Source: a virus (Duplodnaviria > Caudoviricetes). From it: DNA of 64,000 nt. Positions 39,596 through 45,866 of the stretch are shown one piece after another. A program made the translations under genes and the position numbers. The notes under the pieces are model-generated. The model made no database searches. It saw only the letters and a program-made list of their open reading frames with translations, and had not been told where the DNA came from. Each line of letters opens with the position of its first letter. Within the stretch, counting starts at the first letter, position 1. The stretch is from IMG/VR virus record IMGVR_UViG_3300028591_000189, positions 7,880 to 71,879 of that record. The stretch is one strand, 5' to 3'.

Positions 39596-40226
39596 AGAAG
39601 AAACAACAAAAGTCGTATTTTACATTAAGGGTGCGTATCCCGGCTATTATCTCAAAGTAAATGCAGATGCGTTCAAGCATCAGATTATGGTGTGGCATGA
39701 TATTCTTAAAAACGAACCTTTTGACCGTGTTATGGCAGGGGTAAAGAGTGCTATCTGCGCCGGAACGAACGGTTTTCCGCCTTCGCTTGATATGGTTATC
39801 GAATACATGCACAGGGCAGAGAACCCTGGAAACCGTTCTGGAATTGATGCTTGGCGGTTAGTGTGCAGGGCAATCAACTCTCCCCGCGACCAAATGAAAG
39901 CTGCGTTCGCTACTCTGCCGGAAACGATTCAGCATGTCTTAGGTTCGCCGGATACTCTGCTTGCATGGGGCAACGTGGATACGGAACACTTTGAAACCGT
40001 GATCCAGTCGAACTTCCTTCGGTCATATGAAGCACAGGTTCGCCGTGAACACATTGAACACAAGATACCTGAGAACCTTCGTATCTCGCTTGACGGGCCG
40101 GAGCCGCCTAAGATCGAAGGCCCTAAGTCCGTTGAGTATGACGATGCTTTTGATTCAACCGAAGTCGAAATGCCTAAGTCCGTATCTGACAGGCTGGCGG
40201 CACTTCGGAAGAAACTTGGACAGTAA
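39588..40226 (+). CDS. Helicase loader/inhibitor (G39P-like)
   Basis: MTKEE...I..AYP...W...L....FPPS; directly after initiator. Confidence 0.75.
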   Translation: MTKEETTKVVFYIKGAYPGYYLKVNADAFKHQIMVWHDILKNEPFDRVMAGVKSAICAGTNGFPPSLDMVIEYMHRAENPGNRSGIDAWRLVCRAINSPRDQMKAAFATLPETIQHVLGSPDTLLAWGNVDTEHFETVIQSNFLRSYEAQVRREHIEHKIPENLRISLDGPEPPKIEGPKSVEYDDAFDSTEVEMPKSVSDRLAALRKKLGQ

Positions 40227-40265
40227 ATTTTATTCGAGATTTTAGGAAAATTTTGTCTAATATGG

Positions 40266-40294
40266 TTGACACGCACAGTGAATTGTAGTAGACT
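40266..40294 (+). promoter_or_regulatory. Promoter for the RAMP locus
   Basis: TTGACA-17-TAGACT; TCTACtaaaGTAGA operator 50 bp downstream (40344-40357). Confidence 0.7.
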
Positions 40295-40371
40295 AAAGAA
40301 GTCGAAGGGCAAGGGGGTACGGCCTAGGACAGTACCCCATAATTCTACTAAAGTAGACGGAAGGAAGGAGA

Positions 40372-40843: not shown

Positions 40844-41433
40844 CGGTACAGACTGTTGAATAGGTGGCAGTAAGCCACATAATTACATAATTACAGTACG
40901 ACACAGTAAATGAGAGAATATTACATTAAACGACACAACAACAAATTACTACCATCTGTTCAGCAGTCCGTACCGATAACACTGACTGTCTAATAGGTGA
41001 AATAAGTCACCTACATAGACCATACGGCATTAAACCAAATTAGACTGCATTACAAAACAGCGGCTAAGAAAAAATTAGAATAAACTACAACAGATTTATT
41101 TCATCTGTTAGGCAGTCAGTAAACATTGACCATCTACCAGGTGGCAGTAGCCACCAAACACCGTTTATCACATGACACAAAATCATAGGTAACAACAAAC
41201 GAGTAAAACAGAAGAAATCACACTACATAACAACATAGTTACTACCATCTGATAGGTGGTCAATGAACAAAGTAACAATCGGTTGTCTTATAGGTGGCAG
41301 AAGTCACCGAAAAGATAATAAAAAACGTTTAAACAGAATCGGTCAACACCTGTAATGACAGTAGAAAAAATTAAACGACAATTAACCAAAGAACAACACA
41401 GGACAGACTACTACCATCTGTAAGGCAACCGAT
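40844..41433 (+). ncRNA. Array A: four stem-flanked units each holding an ANA-NN pentamer tract (putative guide RNAs)
   Basis: Units 40844-40975, 40981-41120, 41125-41264, 41278-41433; conserved arms AGGTGGCAGTA / TACTACCATCT with covarying outer stems; no plus-strand ORF. Confidence 0.8.
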
Positions 41434-41474
41434 AAAATAAATAATTCCACAAAAGAAAAGGAGAAAGAAAAACC

Positions 41475-42116
41475 ATGGCAAAGAAAGACGAAATCATTGA
41501 AATCAAGAAAGTTGACCCTAAGACCGCCATCTTCCACATTGAAGGAACCAGCGCCATCATCTGTAACAAGATGGACAATGTTACAAAGCGTGACCTGACC
41601 GATGAACGCAAGGACAAGGCAAAGGAAGTCAAGAAGCCTAACAAGTGGGAAAAGATCATTACCTCTATCCACTGGAACAACGGCGACCCGGAAACTTTCA
41701 CAGAGGAATCTCTGAAAGAGCAGCTTGCAAACAACGCCCCATGCTTCACAACCTTTGGTTTCAAGAAGGCCATGTGTGATGCGGTTGTCCGTTTCGGCAT
41801 CGACAAGTATTCCACTAAGTTCAAGGCGGCGGTCAGCATGAACAGCAAGAACGGACTTATCCCGTTCAAGTTCTCCGATTACAGATGCAGGGAAGAACTC
41901 ATGTCCCCTAAGAGGGGCGCTCCGATTCTGGTCTACATCAACGAGTTCGGCGGCTGGGAAGCAGATGTAAGCATTACCTACATCGACAGCGTTTACTCCC
42001 TGGAACAGATCGTGAACATCATCAACCTTACAGGCATCGGAATCGGCATCGGCTCCGGCAGAAACGCAGAGTTCGGCAGATTCAAGGTGACTGGCGTAAC
42101 AAAGGTTGGCGAATAA
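41475..42116 (+). CDS. Cas7/RAMP-like protein 1
   Basis: beta1 IFHIEGTSAII, helix TFGFKKAMCDA, FGGWEADVSI, Gly-rich loop GIGIGIGSGR...FGRF. Confidence 0.75.
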   Translation: MAKKDEIIEIKKVDPKTAIFHIEGTSAIICNKMDNVTKRDLTDERKDKAKEVKKPNKWEKIITSIHWNNGDPETFTEESLKEQLANNAPCFTTFGFKKAMCDAVVRFGIDKYSTKFKAAVSMNSKNGLIPFKFSDYRCREELMSPKRGAPILVYINEFGGWEADVSITYIDSVYSLEQIVNIINLTGIGIGIGSGRNAEFGRFKVTGVTKVGE

Positions 42117-42254
42117 GATACATTCGTAACGTCAATTTTTCTACCATAGTAGACAGGGGGTGATAAACGGCAACATCTATAACAGGAGAACCAACTTACA
42201 GCAACGAGAAGAAAAGGTTCGGCTCCGTAGGGTGTTGGTAACAATACGAACTGT

Positions 42255-44210
42255 TACAGAATAGCATAGAATTGATGTGGAAAGGGGTGAGCAAAGGCTA
42301 AGAGAAACGGTGCCCAGGAAAAGCAAAGATTGGCAACGGCAATGTGAAGTTTTGCTAGGGCAAAGCGAAGTATGACAGGGCAATGGCAAAGAAGCGCTAC
42401 GAAAGGCCATGGTTAAGCTAAGAAAAGCAGAGCCACGGAAATGTTTAGTGAGCCAGTGTGAGGGCGATGCGCAGAGCAGTGCTAAGTGGCAAAGGATTAG
42501 TTCTGATGCGTAAGGTGCTGGCATAGCCTAGAAGCGTACAACACTGTTATGGATTAGCTTGGATTAGTTACGGACTAGCCCTGACTAGTTAAGTTAAGGC
42601 TCTGATATGAACTGTGCAGGAAATGTGAAGAACAGCATGGGCATAGGAATGAAACGTGAAGGCTAAGTCCTGATAGCTTCGGAAATGATACGCCAAGTCT
42701 TGGCACTGGTTCGCCATGAAAAGGAAATGCAAAGTTTCGTTGCGGAAAAGGTTAGCCATGAACGGCAAAGGCACTGACTAGATAGGCTACGCATTGGAAT
42801 TGAACAGAACCGTCCCGCAAGGGAAAAGCATGGAGAACAACAGTAATGGCTTAGTTTTGTTCCGGCTGTAAAGGCGGTGATTTGAATAGCGTAGGCAGGG
42901 GCTTGAATAGCGTTGGTTATGACAAGAAGCGTAGTGGCTGAGTTCTGCGTGGTGACGAAATGCTGTGGAAAAGCACTGTGCCGGAAGAGCAAAGAATCGT
43001 ACTGTGCCGGAAAAGTATAGCACGGTTTCGGAATAGCAAAGCATAGCCGGACAGAGCAATGGTAATGACTAGAGATGTGACGTAGTGCAGTGGAATTGCA
43101 AAGTTGAGCGAAGAACCGTTGAGGAAATGCAAAGACGGGAAAAGCTATGGCGTTGCTGGGAAAAGATTGGCAAGGGTGTTGTGAGGACAGGATATGCTAT
43201 GGCATTGTTCAGCCGAGTTTCGGTGTCGAAGTGATGCGACCTGTAAAGGCGTTGATTTGACATGATTTGTTTTGGCATTGCAAAGTTCAGATTCGCAAAG
43301 GAAAAGCAGGGAAAAGTTTGCACTGTAAAGGCAGAGCAAGGAGAGGTTTTGCGAAGGCAGAGGAACGCTGTGTATCGGCATTGGGCGGCTAGATAGCGTA
43401 AAGGCATGGTCAAGCGGTGAAACGCAAAGGCGAAGCAATGATCGTGAAGAAACGATAGCTTGGTAAAGGCATCGTGGAACGGTGTTTAGGCTAGGAAAGG
43501 TATTGTTCTGTCAAGGCAAAGCCAAACGATGTAATGGCAGAGAGTAGCAAGGCGGCGGCATTGATAGTGCGGTAATGATAGCGCTGATATGGAGTTGCAT
43601 AGAATAGTCCGCAATGGAGTAGCTAAGTTCAGAAGCGTAGGGCTTCGGCAAAGTAAAGGCTGTGATGCTTCGGAAGTGAATTGCGAAGAAATGGCGAAGT
43701 AAACCGGGGCCGTGTTCAGGAATGGCTCAGAGTTGATTCGCAAAGGCATAGACCAGTCATGAGTTGCTAAGGCATTGAGTAGATAAGCAATGGCAAAGCG
43801 AAGCATTGACATGTTAAGGCGTTGCGAAGATATGCTCCGCAAAGGAATCGTGATGCTCAGTTGAGGAAAAGAAAAGAGCCGTGCGCAAGGGAAATGCAAA
43901 GCAAAGTGACGTTGCGGAGTAGTTTTGTATCGGTGGTGCTATCAGATGCGAAGTGATGGAATGGTGATGCCAGGAGAAGAACAGAGGGGGTGATGGAAAC
44001 GAGTGGAAGAGTAAAGGCATAGAAGCGAGCAGTCATGGAAATGAGTAGAACAGTTTAGTCGTGGAAATGAATGAGTAGAAGCGGTCAGCTACGGAAAAGC
44101 TAAGATTGGTATAGGAATCGTAAAGTTCAGTAGCGGAAATGTTCAGTACGGTCATGGAAAGGAATGGAAAGGCCCTGAACGGCAAAGGCGGCGAATGGCC
44201 CCGTGCTGAT
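42255..44210 (+). repeat. Array B: ~1.95 kb non-coding tract of G-terminated pentamers punctuated by GG-ending hexamers
   Basis: e.g. 43731: agttg attcg caaagg catag accag tcatg agttg ctaagg cattg agtag ataag caatgg; no plus-strand ORF of 60 aa or more. Confidence 0.85.
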
Positions 44211-44282
44211 TACACAAGCAAAGGCAACTGTTAACCAGTGGTTCCAAAAATATTTTTTCAAGAAAGAAAGGAAAGAAAAACA

Positions 44283-45023
44283 ATGGCACTTGATATTTTT
44301 AGCAAAAACGCAATCGACAGAAGAATCAAAATCTCCTTCCTGGAGCCTGCACTTGGCACGGCCCCTAATGACAAAGAGGTTTACAGCAACTATATCGCAA
44401 GCAAGGCCCCGGACGCACAGGGAATCGAAGAAGAGATTGCCGCCATCGGTGTAGATGGTGTGGCAGAGCAGGGCATGACAGTATTCCCCCGTATCAACTT
44501 CGACAAAGAGCGCCCCGGTTTCTGGCCTTATCAGATTCGTGGATTCTTCAAGTCAGCACAGCAGGCACTCAACGATATGGTTCCGAACAAGGAAGAGCGT
44601 AAGAAGAAGGGTTCCGGCTACCTGTCCACATACAAGCGCAAGATCGACACGCTGGTTTTTGTCAAGACCATCGGCGCAAGATGGACAAAGTACAAGACTG
44701 CCGGAACGGATAAGCAGCTTATTGAGATTCACCTTCCCGAAGGTGGCGAGATCACAGCCTGTGAACGCCCTCTGAGAGCACAGACCATGCAGGGCGAACG
44801 TGTTGCACTGGCGAAGAGCGAAGCGGTTCCCGAAGGCTCCTGGATGGAGTTTGATGTAAGGATTATCGATCCCAACCTGGAAGATTACCTTGGCGAGTGG
44901 CTCGAATTTGGAGCCTACAACGGCCTTGGACAGTGGCGCAACTCCGGCAAGGGCACATTCGTTTACTGGATGTACGATATGGACGGCAACCTTGTCAAGA
45001 CCAATGCCGAAGATGAAGAATGA
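44283..45023 (+). CDS. Cas7/Csm3-type RAMP-like protein 2
   Basis: beta1 IKISFLEPALGT, PYQIRGFFKSA, SEAVPEGSWMEFDV, Gly-rich loop GLGQWRNSGKGTF. Confidence 0.78.
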   Translation: MALDIFSKNAIDRRIKISFLEPALGTAPNDKEVYSNYIASKAPDAQGIEEEIAAIGVDGVAEQGMTVFPRINFDKERPGFWPYQIRGFFKSAQQALNDMVPNKEERKKKGSGYLSTYKRKIDTLVFVKTIGARWTKYKTAGTDKQLIEIHLPEGGEITACERPLRAQTMQGERVALAKSEAVPEGSWMEFDVRIIDPNLEDYLGEWLEFGAYNGLGQWRNSGKGTFVYWMYDMDGNLVKTNAEDEE

Positions 45024-45041
45024 GAAAGAAGGTGACAGGAT

Positions 45042-45449
45042 ATGTCAATGAACTGTTTCACGGGCATCGGCAACTTAGTTGCTGACCCGGAAGTAAGGTA
45101 CACAAATGACGGTCTGTGTATCGCAAGCTACCGTATAGCAATCAGCAGGGACTTTAGCAAGGACAACGAAAGCGACTTCCTTAATTGCAAGGCTTTCGGC
45201 AAGTCCGGCGAGTTTGCAGAGAAGTATCTGCGGAAGGGCATGAAAATCGGCATCAAGGGACGGGTTCAGACGGGAAGCTACACGAACAAGGAAGGCAACA
45301 AGGTCTACACTACCGACATTATTGTAGAGAACCATTACTTCTGCGAGAGGGCAGAAAGCGGCGGCAATCGTGGCGGCGGTCACGAGAAGTCCGCAGACGA
45401 CTTCATGAACATCCCGGACGGGATTGACGAAGAACTTCCGTTTACCTAA
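45042..45449 (+). CDS. ssb: Single-stranded DNA-binding protein
   Basis: GNLVADPEVRYT, GRVQTGSY.NKEG, C-terminal DEELPF. Confidence 0.96.
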   Translation: MSMNCFTGIGNLVADPEVRYTNDGLCIASYRIAISRDFSKDNESDFLNCKAFGKSGEFAEKYLRKGMKIGIKGRVQTGSYTNKEGNKVYTTDIIVENHYFCERAESGGNRGGGHEKSADDFMNIPDGIDEELPFT

Positions 45450-45491
45450 GTAGTCTACTAAGGCAGAAGGAAAACGATAGGAGAGTAGAAA

Positions 45492-45866
45492 ATGAAGAAG
45501 GCAATCAGAAGAACAATCGAAACAGTTTTGATTCTGTACGTGATGATGTGGGTTCTCTGCATCGAAACGGCAACATGGGAAATGTACGTTGTGGCTTTTG
45601 GTTGCCTTCTTGGTTTATTAGCGTTTGGACGCAGGGAGCAGAGAATGACACAGAATGAACAGGTGCTTGACTACATGCAGAAGTACGGTTCGATCACGGC
45701 CTTAGATGCCATGAGGGACTTAGGGTGCATGAGGTTAGCAAGCCGGATCAGTGACTTAAAGAAAAACGGTCACAGGATTATCACAACTAAGAAGTCAGTT
45801 GTGCGCCGGGACGGAACTAAGGCATATATCGCAGAGTACAGGCTGGGGGCGGCAGATGGAACGTGA
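45492..45866 (+). CDS. Membrane segment plus HTH domain (possibly two genes; HTH part starting MTQNEQV)
   Basis: Two hydrophobic stretches, then GSITALDAMRDLGCMRLASRISDLK. Confidence 0.55.
   Translation: MKKAIRRTIETVLILYVMMWVLCIETATWEMYVVAFGCLLGLLAFGRREQRMTQNEQVLDYMQKYGSITALDAMRDLGCMRLASRISDLKKNGHRIITTKKSVVRRDGTKAYIAEYRLGAADGT

What the first reader, a model, noticed from the sequence alone, without database searches (positions are those of the whole stretch)
42255..44210. Array B: ~2 kb of G-anchored pentamers grouped into blocks closed by GG hexamers
The plus strand parses almost throughout as HNNNG units. About every 3-5 units a 6-mer ending GG occurs (caaagg, ctaagg, caatgg, ttaagg, ttgagg, ttgcgg), often followed by CA or AA (ggcaaag, ggcatag, ggaaatg). 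Unit sequences are heterogeneous, so this is not a simple tandem repeat. A phage keeping 2 kb of non-coding DNA next to a RAMP gene suggests a large library of non-contiguous guides, or one long scaffold. The grammar differs from array A (no stems, G-rich), which suggests each RAMP has its own guide code.
Basis: partly seen in the sequence, partly recalled or inferred. Interest (0 to 1): 0.88.

Follow-up and report, generated by a model that had tools for sequence, protein, structure and literature searches.

The report
Phage VIPR guide-RNA array, 83 blocks
This 2-kb gene-free stretch of a gut phage is a very long array of about 83 short guide-RNA units written in five-base steps, which belongs to the Cas7-like gene beside it; it is a large member of the VIPR RNA-guided systems first described in 2026, not a new kind of system.

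Summary
Window 42117-44282 has no ORF on the + strand. It has a phase-coherent 5.19-nt periodicity (power 36 against 2.5 +/- 0.4 in shuffles). It parses into 415 units, 95% ending in G, grouped into about 83 blocks of 4-6 pentamers, each closed by an xxxxGG hexamer.

Both flanking genes fold as Cas7/Csm3-like RAMPs (Z about 12 for the 246-aa one). Homologs of the downstream 246-aa RAMP carry the same G-anchored 5.1-5.2-nt tract beside them on the same strand in 146 of 160 distant loci. Homologs of the upstream 213-aa RAMP never do (0 of 80).

Array content turns over by whole blocks. A 98.8%-identical relative differs by exactly three indels of 1, 2 and 2 complete blocks. Relatives whose RAMP gene is 72-83% identical share almost no array content.

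This matches the VIPR systems (bioRxiv 2026), in their NNNNG-repeat, "staggered array" form. This scan has found VIPR loci before in at least 23 other genomes.

Not shown here are RNA expression, processing, the pairing code and any target. My gapped target searches were inconclusive.

Unusual features are the size of the array, guides of only 4-6 pentamers, and a second RAMP with a differently built array in the same operon.

The parts
40266..40294 (+). Sigma-70-like promoter (TTGACA-17-TAGACT) heading the rightward operon: 154-aa gene, array A, RAMP-1, array B, RAMP-2, SSB.
   Evidence: 10 of 12 consensus matches, and no + strand terminator up to 45600. Window 40211-40327 is 91% identical to the stretch just upstream of the array in L004-L006. 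This is a consensus match only; function is inferred.
41475..42116 (+). RAMP-1: a 213-aa Cas7/Csm3-like protein with a C-terminal G-rich loop (GIGIGIGSGRN). It is not the partner of array B.
   Evidence: AF2 pLDDT 80. Foldseek top hits are Csm3 chains, E 3e-5. phrog_4652, no Pfam match. 0/80 homologous loci carry a G-anchored periodic tract.
42139..42163 (+). Conserved array leader holding a small palindrome (CTAC-N4-GTAG followed by ACAGG). A similar element lies at 40343-40360, after the promoter.
   Evidence: 94% identical over 42133-42167 between the window and L004-L006 although the arrays differ. The exact 25-mer retrieved L273 and L274. Its role (operator or processing signal) is not tested.
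42218..44224 (+). Array B proper: about 83 blocks of 4-6 NNNNG pentamers, each closed by an xxxxGG hexamer (family consensus CAANGG, with the next unit starting A or C). These are the presumed vrRNA guide units of RAMP-2.
   Evidence: Family-wide association. Block-wise turnover.
42340..42380 (+). Two whole blocks (21 + 20 nt) that are present here and absent from the 98.8%-identical array L273.
   Evidence: with block boundaries. The first of the two blocks is also shared with L004-L006 at 96%.
42915..42937 (+). A block shared at 100% with the otherwise unrelated array of L004-L006. The match runs exactly from one GG to the next GG.
   Evidence: (23/23 identical), read.
43721..43772 (+). Two whole blocks (26 + 26 nt) absent from L273.
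43794..43819 (+). One whole block (26 nt) absent from L273.
44283..45023 (+). RAMP-2: a 246-aa Cas7-like (Vipr-like) protein and the presumed partner of array B. Its G-loop reads GIGQWRNSGKGRF, with W218, R219, N220 and G224 invariant. A conserved YIASKAPDA segment lies in the low-confidence stretch 31-63, which may be the thumb.
   Evidence: AF2 pLDDT 78. Foldseek E 2e-7 to type VII Cas7 and Csm3. VIA Z 12.4, 175 residues aligned. BFVD top hit is a Siphoviridae protein named 'Cas system-associated RAMP superfamily protein', 46% identical. More than 6000 homologs, none with a Pfam family. Conserved columns. Trimer model ipSAE 0.44 against 0.00 for the best control.

Best explanation
Array B is the guide-RNA (vrRNA) array of a VIPR-type system whose protein is the 246-aa Cas7-like RAMP encoded just downstream (44283-45023).

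Inferred mechanism, by analogy with the published type II VIPR:
- The tract is transcribed rightward with the operon as an unstructured, G-rich, C-poor RNA.
- RAMP-2 protomers bind one per pentamer and hold the anchoring G, probably through the Q-W-R G-loop.
- The extra G that closes each block shifts the register by one base and marks where one guide ends and the next begins (the 'staggered array' form).
- The array would therefore yield about 83 short filaments of 4-6 protomers. Their variable bases would read DNA of competing mobile elements and silence it.

Shown here: the grammar, the RAMP fold, the specific gene-array association across about 160 loci, and block-wise evolution.

Inferred: transcription, processing at GG, the pairing rule and the targets.
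For: (1) Periodicity and block grammar are far beyond chance.

(2) RAMP-2 is Cas7-like over its whole length and is predicted to self-associate head to tail. ipSAE is 0.44 against a best control of 0.00. That mark was reached by 20 of 30 proteins solved as pairs and by 1 of 23 solved as single chains. The runs agree in at least 40% of contacts and partner pLDDT is at least 69. Likeness to solved Cas7 filaments may drive this result.

(3) A same-strand G-anchored tract of period 5.1-5.2 adjoins the gene in 74/80 IMG/VR loci and 72/80 genome loci at 40-50% protein identity, and in L001-L006. It is absent from 80 RAMP-1 loci.

(4) Anchor Gs change about ten times more rarely than the four N positions between homologous blocks: 1.5% against 10-14%.

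(5) Window against L273: 98.8% identity, and the only indels are 41, 52 and 26 nt, that is 2, 2 and 1 whole blocks.

(6) L004-L006 (RAMP-2 gene 83% identical) and L274 (72%) share the leader, but their arrays cannot be aligned with the window's. L004-L006 also share three block-sized pieces and the 3' end. In a second clade, block identity is bimodal.

(7) The VIPR papers describe lone phage RAMPs with pentamer-repeat vrRNAs, with one protomer per repeat. [quoted passage not shown]
Against: No target was found.
- Exhaustive gapped-code searches of 0.9-2.3 Mb of related phage DNA gave nothing above shuffled controls.
- Of five IMG/VR scans with guides from a relative's array, four found no target: one matched only copies of the array itself and three returned nothing. 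The fifth found a match that may be chance.

Guides of 4-6 pentamers would carry only 8-12 specifying bases under the published two-bases-per-repeat rule. That seems too few for specific targeting.

The canonical GGY/NN consensus, the 9-16 repeats and the 3' tail of the type II vrRNA are absent.

I could not see the preprint's figures, so assignment to its 'staggered NNNNG' form rests on a legend and a methods sentence.

No RNA data could be obtained.
Confidence: 0.82

Rival explanations
1. One long unprocessed scaffold or decoy RNA. RAMP-2, or a competitor's Vipr, polymerises along the whole 2-kb transcript, and only the anchoring Gs matter. The extra G every 4-6 units relieves strain once per helical turn of the filament. 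The RNA carries no targeting information; it would act, for example, as a sponge or a structural ribonucleoprotein.
For: The phase is coherent over 2 kb. Block length (4-7 units) is close to the 5-6 protomers per turn reported for Vipr filaments. No targets were found. [quoted passage not shown]
Against: Indels between near-identical arrays are exact whole blocks. Some blocks are kept at 96-100% next to unalignable neighbours, which uniform drift would not give. Blocks of 4, 5 and 6 units are mixed within one array, which argues against a fixed geometric need. In window against L273, substitutions in pentamers are not spread evenly over the four N positions: 10, 1, 2 and 4 of 276 each (my chi-square about 11.5, df 3). 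This hints at constraint on positions 2-4, but other clades do not repeat it.
Confidence: 0.1
2. A double-stranded DNA element of the replication module, such as an origin, a protein-coating site or a phased-bending site. In this reading 5.2 bp is half a helical turn.
For: The tract lies among replication genes: an O-like initiator, a G39P-like loader and SSB. 5.19 x 2 = 10.4 bp, which matches the B-DNA repeat.
Against: The 5.19 average arises from discrete 5-mers plus one 6-mer per block, not from an even spacing. The signal is strictly strand-asymmetric (G 31%, C 15%) and always follows the strand of the RAMP gene. In other phages the gene-array pair sits beside integrases, repressors or a TnpB-like gene rather than replication genes. 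Array content is hypervariable.
Confidence: 0.04
3. Protein-coding sequence read in an unusual way, or a degenerate simple tandem repeat with no function.
For: Gene callers place spurious minus-strand ORFs in such tracts (a 178-aa call in L001; minus-strand ORFs of 90-137 aa here).
Against: There is no 3-nt periodicity and there are 43-48 stops in each + frame under any code. Minus-strand ORFs follow from the scarcity of C on the + strand, and they are not conserved because the arrays do not align. The grammar is conserved in about 150 loci while the sequence is not.
Confidence: 0.01

Closest known systems
VIPR systems (Vipr protein + vrRNA), in the form with NNNNG repeats and 'staggered' vrRNA arrays. 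Sources: bioRxiv 10.64898/2026.04.26.720920 (methods and the fig. S18 legend); structures in 10.64898/2026.04.26.720927.
   Same: A lone phage-encoded Cas7-like RAMP outside any CRISPR-cas locus. An adjacent same-strand array of pentanucleotide repeats with a fixed G and variable bases. Guides abut with no spacer or hairpin, so that the end of one marks the start of the next. Content is hypervariable between related phages. A G-loop W-R pair is present, as in the SUSP1 Vipr (D177-W178-R179).
   Different: Only one G per pentamer is fixed (HNNNG) instead of GGY. Guides have 4-6 repeats instead of 9-16. There is no 3' tail or pseudoknot per guide. About 83 guides sit in one 2-kb array. No conserved accessory (vap) gene could be identified. 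The pairing rule and targets were not established here. I could not see the preprint's figures, so I cannot say which of its seven types this belongs to.
CRISPR arrays with class 1 Cas7 backbones (types I, III, IV and VII)
   Same: The same protein fold (Z about 12 to Csm3 and type VII Cas7). One protomer per fixed step of RNA. The array evolves by gain and loss of discrete units while a leader is conserved.
   Different: There are no repeat-spacer units, no Cas6-type hairpin, no cas1/cas2 or other cas genes, and no Rfam CRISPR-DR hit. The step is 5 nt rather than 6. The punctuation is a single extra G inside a weak CAANGG motif, not a 25-40-nt repeat.
TRAP binding sites in Bacillus trp leaders: (G/U)AG triplets with 2-3-nt spacers (from my own knowledge)
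   Same: A G recurring every 5-6 nt on one RNA strand, read by one protein subunit per repeat.
   Different: TRAP sites have 9-11 repeats read by a ring of unrelated fold. Here there is no NAG consensus: the position before the anchor G is A in only 42% of pentamers. The partner is a RAMP and the tract has about 415 units.

Membership tests
VIPR system | Lone RAMP homolog (RRM core, G-loop, thumb), about 20-25 kDa, not in a CRISPR-cas locus | tested here: met
   VIA Z 12.4 to Csm3 and Cas7 over residues 9-241. Foldseek E 2e-7. Conserved G-loop. No CRISPR-DR family in the window. Curated Cas models give only sub-threshold hits. The thumb is only inferred, from the low-confidence conserved stretch 31-63.
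VIPR system | Adjacent non-coding array of tandem pentanucleotide repeats on the gene's strand | tested here: met
   415 units, period 5.19 nt, power 36 against 2.5 in shuffles. The same holds in 146/160 homologous loci.
VIPR system | Repeat consensus GGY/NN (YNNGG), or one of the alternatives named in the paper (NNNGG, YNNNG, NNNNG) | tested here: met
   The canonical GGY is absent. The unit is HNNNG, with G at 94-96% and the other positions at 1.6-1.96 bits. This corresponds to the NNNNG alternative named in the paper's methods.
VIPR system | vrRNA of 9-16 repeats capped by a conserved 3' tail (type II architecture) | tested here: not met
   Blocks have 4-6 repeats and no tail, and no selected RNA structure. 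This fits the 'staggered array' alternative, in which guides abut with a 1-nt overlap, and not the type II form.
VIPR system | Located in a phage or provirus | tested here: met
   A 72-kb phage contig, with the locus inside the replication module. Relatives lie in IMG/VR contigs and in prophages of gut Clostridia MAGs.
VIPR system | Accessory vap gene next to vipr | tested here: inconclusive
   SSB and a winged-helix HTH_39 gene follow RAMP-2 here and in L001 and L005. Neighbours differ in distant loci: an IS605 OrfB/TnpB-type gene, an integrase, an AAA_24 protein, SSB and a repressor.
VIPR system | Vipr oligomerises along the vrRNA, one protomer per repeat | tested here: inconclusive
   A three-copy model gives ipSAE 0.44 against a best control of 0.00, with a head-to-tail interface. 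No RNA was in the model, and likeness to solved Cas7 filaments may drive the score.
VIPR system | Variable bases match DNA of competing mobile elements by a gapped (1-nt skip) rule | tested here: inconclusive
   Local searches with 9 position sets and skips of 0-4 gave nothing above controls. One 9-repeat guide of a relative (L011), read from positions 3-4 with a 1-nt skip, matches 15 IMG/VR contigs in frame, spelling GSTSSARKT; the one contig annotated (L260) places the motif in a major head protein gene. This is one independent hit, near chance expectation. Two further guides read by the same rule gave nothing, and no other guide converges on those contigs. The window's own blocks are too short for the collection scanner under a two-base rule.
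VIPR system | vrRNAs are expressed and co-purify with Vipr | not testable with these tools
CRISPR-Cas (class 1) | Repeat-spacer array plus cas operon (Cas5, Cas6, large subunit, adaptation genes) | tested here: not met
   No CRISPR repeat family. The neighbours are replication genes. Punctuation is one extra G.

The most novel reading that the evidence does not exclude
This single-G (HNNNG) family may use a recognition rule different from the published two-bases-plus-one-skip code. For example, it might read three or four bases per pentamer, so that guides of only 4-6 protomers (about one turn of filament) are specific enough. The extra G would then be a minimal one-base punctuation that replaces repeats, tails or ribozymes. 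With about 83 guides, the array would be among the densest natural guide libraries known, at roughly one guide per 25 nt.
Probability: 0.3. Interest if true: 0.7.

Novelty: new member of a known kind. Interest (0 to 1): 0.45.

Why it matters
VIPR is a months-old discovery, and nearly all experiments so far are on the type II GGY/NN form from E. coli and Pseudomonas phages.

This locus belongs to a very large family: more than 6000 protein clusters, common in phages and prophages of human and animal gut Clostridia. It is written in a sparser grammar, with one fixed G per pentamer and one extra G per guide.

It offers a natural series for working out how short a Vipr filament can be and still be specific. 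It also bears on how guides are delimited without hairpins or ribozymes, and on which rival elements gut phages silence.

The whole-block indels between near-identical arrays show that guides are gained and lost as units. That is the property that makes CRISPR arrays useful as records of conflict.

Practically, gene callers put false minus-strand ORFs into these tracts.

Tried and rejected
(1) Rfam at gathering threshold and tRNA/tmRNA scans of the window found nothing.

(2) BLAST of 41400-45500 against INPHARED phages matched only the SSB region.

(3) A half-helical-turn dsDNA reading of 5.2 bp was rejected. The average comes from a 5+5+5(+5)+6 block structure, and the signal is strand-specific.

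(4) Coding under alternative codes was rejected.

(5) Target search in local DNA (0.9-2.3 Mb of related loci plus the 72-kb genome).
- Codes tested: position sets 1-2, 2-3, 3-4, 1-3, 2-4, 1-2-3, 2-3-4, 1-4 and 1-2-3-4, with skips 0-4 and both polarities.
- Also tested: guides spanning a GG junction with 0, 1 or 3 extra bases.
- Also tested: per-locus convergence for the arrays of the window, L004 and L001.
- Nothing exceeded unit-shuffled controls. The only excess was other arrays matching at period 5.

(6) IMG/VR pattern scans with guides of relative L011.
- Four bases plus one skip found 11 hits, all of them arrays.
- Positions 2-3 plus one skip found 0 hits.
- Positions 3-4 plus one skip found 15 hits at one capsid-gene motif for one guide and 0 for two others.
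- No other guide converges on those contigs. I treat the capsid match as a lead, not a finding.

(7) Dinucleotides at unit positions 2-3 correlate best (r 0.77) with codon positions 1-2 of the phage's genes. Most of this comes from marginal base composition, so it does not settle the code.

(8) In window against L273, substitutions pile up at unit position 1 (10 of 17 in pentamers). This is not reproduced among single-difference block pairs of other clades (23, 19, 18, 25), so I do not use it to assign the code.

(10) A single-sequence locus search with RAMP-2 found nothing. The alignment-based search was needed.
Full report
**The observation**

Window 42117-44282 lies between a 213-aa gene (41475-42116) and a 246-aa gene (44283-45023). 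It holds no + strand ORF of 60 aa or more. Composition is A 704, G 680, T 453, C 331.

The periodogram has a sharp peak at 5.19-5.21 nt with a harmonic at 2.6 nt, and no 3-nt signal. G autocorrelation peaks at lags 5, 10/11, 15/16, 21 and 26. Maximum power is 36.0, against 2.5 +/- 0.4 (maximum 4.2) in 200 plain shuffles and 200 first-order Markov resamples. No other part of the window or of the 72-kb genome shows this.

A dynamic-programming parse gives 415 units: 303 pentamers, 94 hexamers, 17 tetramers and one heptamer. 394 of them end in G, and the gap from one G to the next almost never exceeds 5. Hexamers end in GG and recur every 4-6 units. This cuts the tract into about 83 blocks, mostly of 26, 21 or 31 nt.

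The non-integer period is therefore the average of 5+5+5(+5)+6, not an even spacing. Each + frame has 43-48 stops, and no single stop reassignment opens one. Seven 150-nt segments fold no better than shuffles (z -1.2 to +0.1).

**The neighbours**

The locus sits in the replication module of a siphophage-like genome. The genes are an O-like initiator, a G39P-like helicase loader, a 154-aa protein (phrog_15946), 'array A', the 213-aa protein (phrog_4652), array B, the 246-aa protein, SSB and an HTH_39 protein. The window is most of a 71.9-kb phage contig.

A sigma-70-like promoter lies at 40266-40294. No + strand terminator follows before 45600, so array B is probably transcribed with the operon. 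This is inferred.

Neither flanking protein matches a Pfam family, yet both families are large: more than 6000 and more than 1700 clusters. AlphaFold models built from alignments (pLDDT 78 and 80) match Cas7-type RAMPs.
- 246-aa protein: Foldseek E 2e-7 to type VII Cas7, Csm3, Cmr4 and Csf2; VIA Z 12.4 with 175 residues aligned at rmsd 4.8.
- 213-aa protein: Csm3 at E 3e-5.

In BFVD, the best match of the 246-aa protein is a Siphoviridae protein already named 'Cas system-associated RAMP superfamily protein' (46% identity). Both proteins end in a glycine-rich loop. In the 246-aa family, W218, R219, N220 and G224 are invariant and Q217 nearly so. Curated Cas models give only sub-threshold hits at that loop.

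A three-copy model gives a head-to-tail interface. ipSAE is 0.44, best of three controls 0.00. In calibration that mark was reached by 20 of 30 proteins solved as pairs and by 1 of 23 solved as single chains. The runs agree in at least 40% of contacts and partner pLDDT is at least 69. This supports self-association but does not show it, and likeness to solved Cas7 filaments may explain the pass.

**Which gene owns the array**

Close relatives carry the same kind of tract just upstream of the 246-aa homolog. It is 1.5 kb in L001 and 2.2 kb in L004-L006. L004-L006 have the promoter, the leader, array B and RAMP-2 but lack the 154-aa gene, array A and RAMP-1.

At 40-50% protein identity, 74 of 80 IMG/VR loci and 72 of 80 loci from prokaryote genomes have a G-anchored tract with period 5.08-5.23. 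The genome loci are mostly prophages in gut Clostridia MAGs. The tract is always on the gene's strand, usually just downstream of the gene and sometimes upstream, and 250-1650 nt long. The window's tract is the longest I saw.

None of 80 loci of the 213-aa family has such a tract. So the array goes with RAMP-2 and not with RAMP-1.

**The grammar across the family**

In 935 non-redundant blocks the unit composition is as follows:

| Unit position | Main bases | Information |
|---|---|---|
| 1 | C 46%, A 37%, G 4% | 1.63 bits |
| 2 | A 46% | 1.81 bits |
| 3 | near-uniform | 1.95 bits |
| 4 | near-uniform | 1.96 bits |
| 5 | G 96% | fixed anchor |

The closing hexamer has the consensus C-A-A-N-G-G (C 73%, A 55%, A 65%). 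The next unit starts with A or C followed by A. Other clades have longer blocks, of 6-7 units.

Between homologous blocks, anchors differ in 1.5% of cases against 10-14% for each of the four N positions.

**How arrays evolve**

A metagenome contig, L273, aligns with the window's array at 98.8% identity. The only indels are 41, 52 and 26 nt, corresponding to window 42340-42380, 43721-43772 and 43794-43819. These are exactly two, two and one complete GG-closed blocks.

L274 has RAMP-1 at 91% identity and the same leader, but a 1.5-kb array with no similarity to the window's.

L004-L006 (RAMP-2 gene 83% identical) share only these pieces with the window's array:
- the leader;
- three block-sized pieces, one of them 23/23 identical and running exactly from GG to GG (42915-42937);
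- the last 100 nt or so.

In a second clade (L011 and relatives), arrays are mosaics of shared and unshared blocks in conserved order. Best-match block identity is bimodal: either 90% or more, or at the level seen against unrelated arrays. Eleven arrays share one block and the block before it, then continue with different blocks straight after the GG.

Uniform drift of a scaffold in which only the Gs matter would not leave perfect blocks next to unrecognisable ones, and it would not delete whole blocks only.

**What is known**

Three 2026 preprints describe VIPR systems.

The discovery paper reports lone phage-encoded RAMPs (Vipr) with vrRNAs made of pentanucleotide repeats. In the type II form there are 9-16 YNNGG repeats and a 3' tail. 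The NN bases pair with double-stranded DNA while every third target base is skipped, and this silences competing phages and satellites (10.64898/2026.04.26.720920). Its methods name alternative NNNGG, YNNNG and NNNNG repeats. [quoted passage not shown]

The structure paper shows one protomer per repeat. The G-loop residues D177, W178 and R179 and the thumb hold the GGY motif. There are six protomers per turn without DNA and five with it (10.64898/2026.04.26.720927).

Array B fits the NNNNG, staggered form. One extra G per block shifts the register by one base and delimits guides. RAMP-2 keeps a W-R pair in its G-loop.

I could not see the figures, and I cannot say which of the seven types this family is. 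This scan has already reported VIPR loci in at least 23 other genomes, several of them called staggered arrays.

**What remains open**

I could not obtain RNA data.

I could not establish the pairing rule or any target.
- Exhaustive gapped searches of up to 2.3 Mb of related phage DNA gave nothing above shuffled controls.
- Five collection scans used guides of relative L011. A four-base rule found only other arrays. Positions 2-3 plus one skip found nothing.
- Positions 3-4 plus one skip found 15 contigs for one 9-unit guide. All 15 are in frame and spell G-S-T-S-S-A-R-K-T at one conserved motif, with free variation at the third codon base. The one contig that I annotated (L260) places the motif in a major head protein gene, phrog_1328.
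- That pattern looks exactly like a VIPR target. But it is one independent hit, where about one is expected by chance. Two other guides gave nothing, and no other guide converges on those contigs. I report it as a lead only.

The window's own blocks, at 4-6 units, would carry just 8-12 specifying bases under a two-base rule. This is the main reason to suspect that this family reads more bases per unit, or that guides act together. Statistics on the guides themselves did not settle the matter: neither the codon-like dinucleotide usage at positions 2-3 nor the excess of substitutions at position 1 in one pair of arrays.

**Verdict**

It is a member of a kind of system that has been known since 2026, and that this scan has met many times.

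It stands out within that kind for four reasons:
- the array is very long, with about 83 guides;
- the guides are very short;
- the punctuation is a single base;
- a second, differently built array (array A, with long stems and conserved sequence) and its own RAMP sit in the same operon.

Noticed in passing
window 40844-41433: Array A, upstream of RAMP-1, is built differently. It has four cassettes of 145-170 nt, each a 26-28-nt inverted repeat (82-86% complementary) enclosing 84-100 nt of A-rich sequence with only a weak 5-nt signal in A. Unlike array B, it aligns with relative L001 at 78%, about the same as the flanking genes.
   Followed up: partly
window 40343-40360 and 42139-42163: A small palindromic element (TTCTAC-N4-GTAGAC followed by GG) occurs once after the operon promoter and once as the conserved leader of array B. 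The same leader heads the unrelated arrays of L004-L006 and L274. It could be an operator or a processing signal.
   Followed up: partly
L011:5701-7250 (guide) and L258-L272 (matches), e.g. L260:2673-2698: A 9-pentamer block of a relative's array, read from unit positions 3-4 with one base skipped, matches 15 IMG/VR contigs in frame, spelling GSTSSARKT at one conserved motif with free third-codon-base variation. The one contig annotated (L260) places it in a major head protein gene (phrog_1328). It could be a real VIPR target or a chance hit.
   Followed up: partly
L011:3195-4367: An IS605 OrfB / Cas12f-like TnpB gene lies directly upstream of the RAMP-2 homolog in this 109-kb viral contig, and a tyrosine integrase follows the array.
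   Followed up: no
window 42177-43899, minus strand; L001:6008-6544: Because the + strand is poor in C, the minus strand of these arrays is poor in stop codons. It yields false ORFs of 90-178 aa, and a public gene call has accepted one of them.
   Followed up: yes
window 45042-45866: SSB and a winged-helix HTH_39 protein follow RAMP-2 here and in L001 and L005. The HTH_39 gene could be an accessory (vap-like) DNA-binding partner, but it is not conserved next to distant family members.
   Followed up: partly
L274:704-2199: This contig has RAMP-1 at 91% identity and the identical leader, but a completely different 1.5-kb array and a RAMP-2 only 72% identical. This suggests that the array-plus-RAMP-2 module is exchanged as a cassette behind a conserved leader.
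   Followed up: partly
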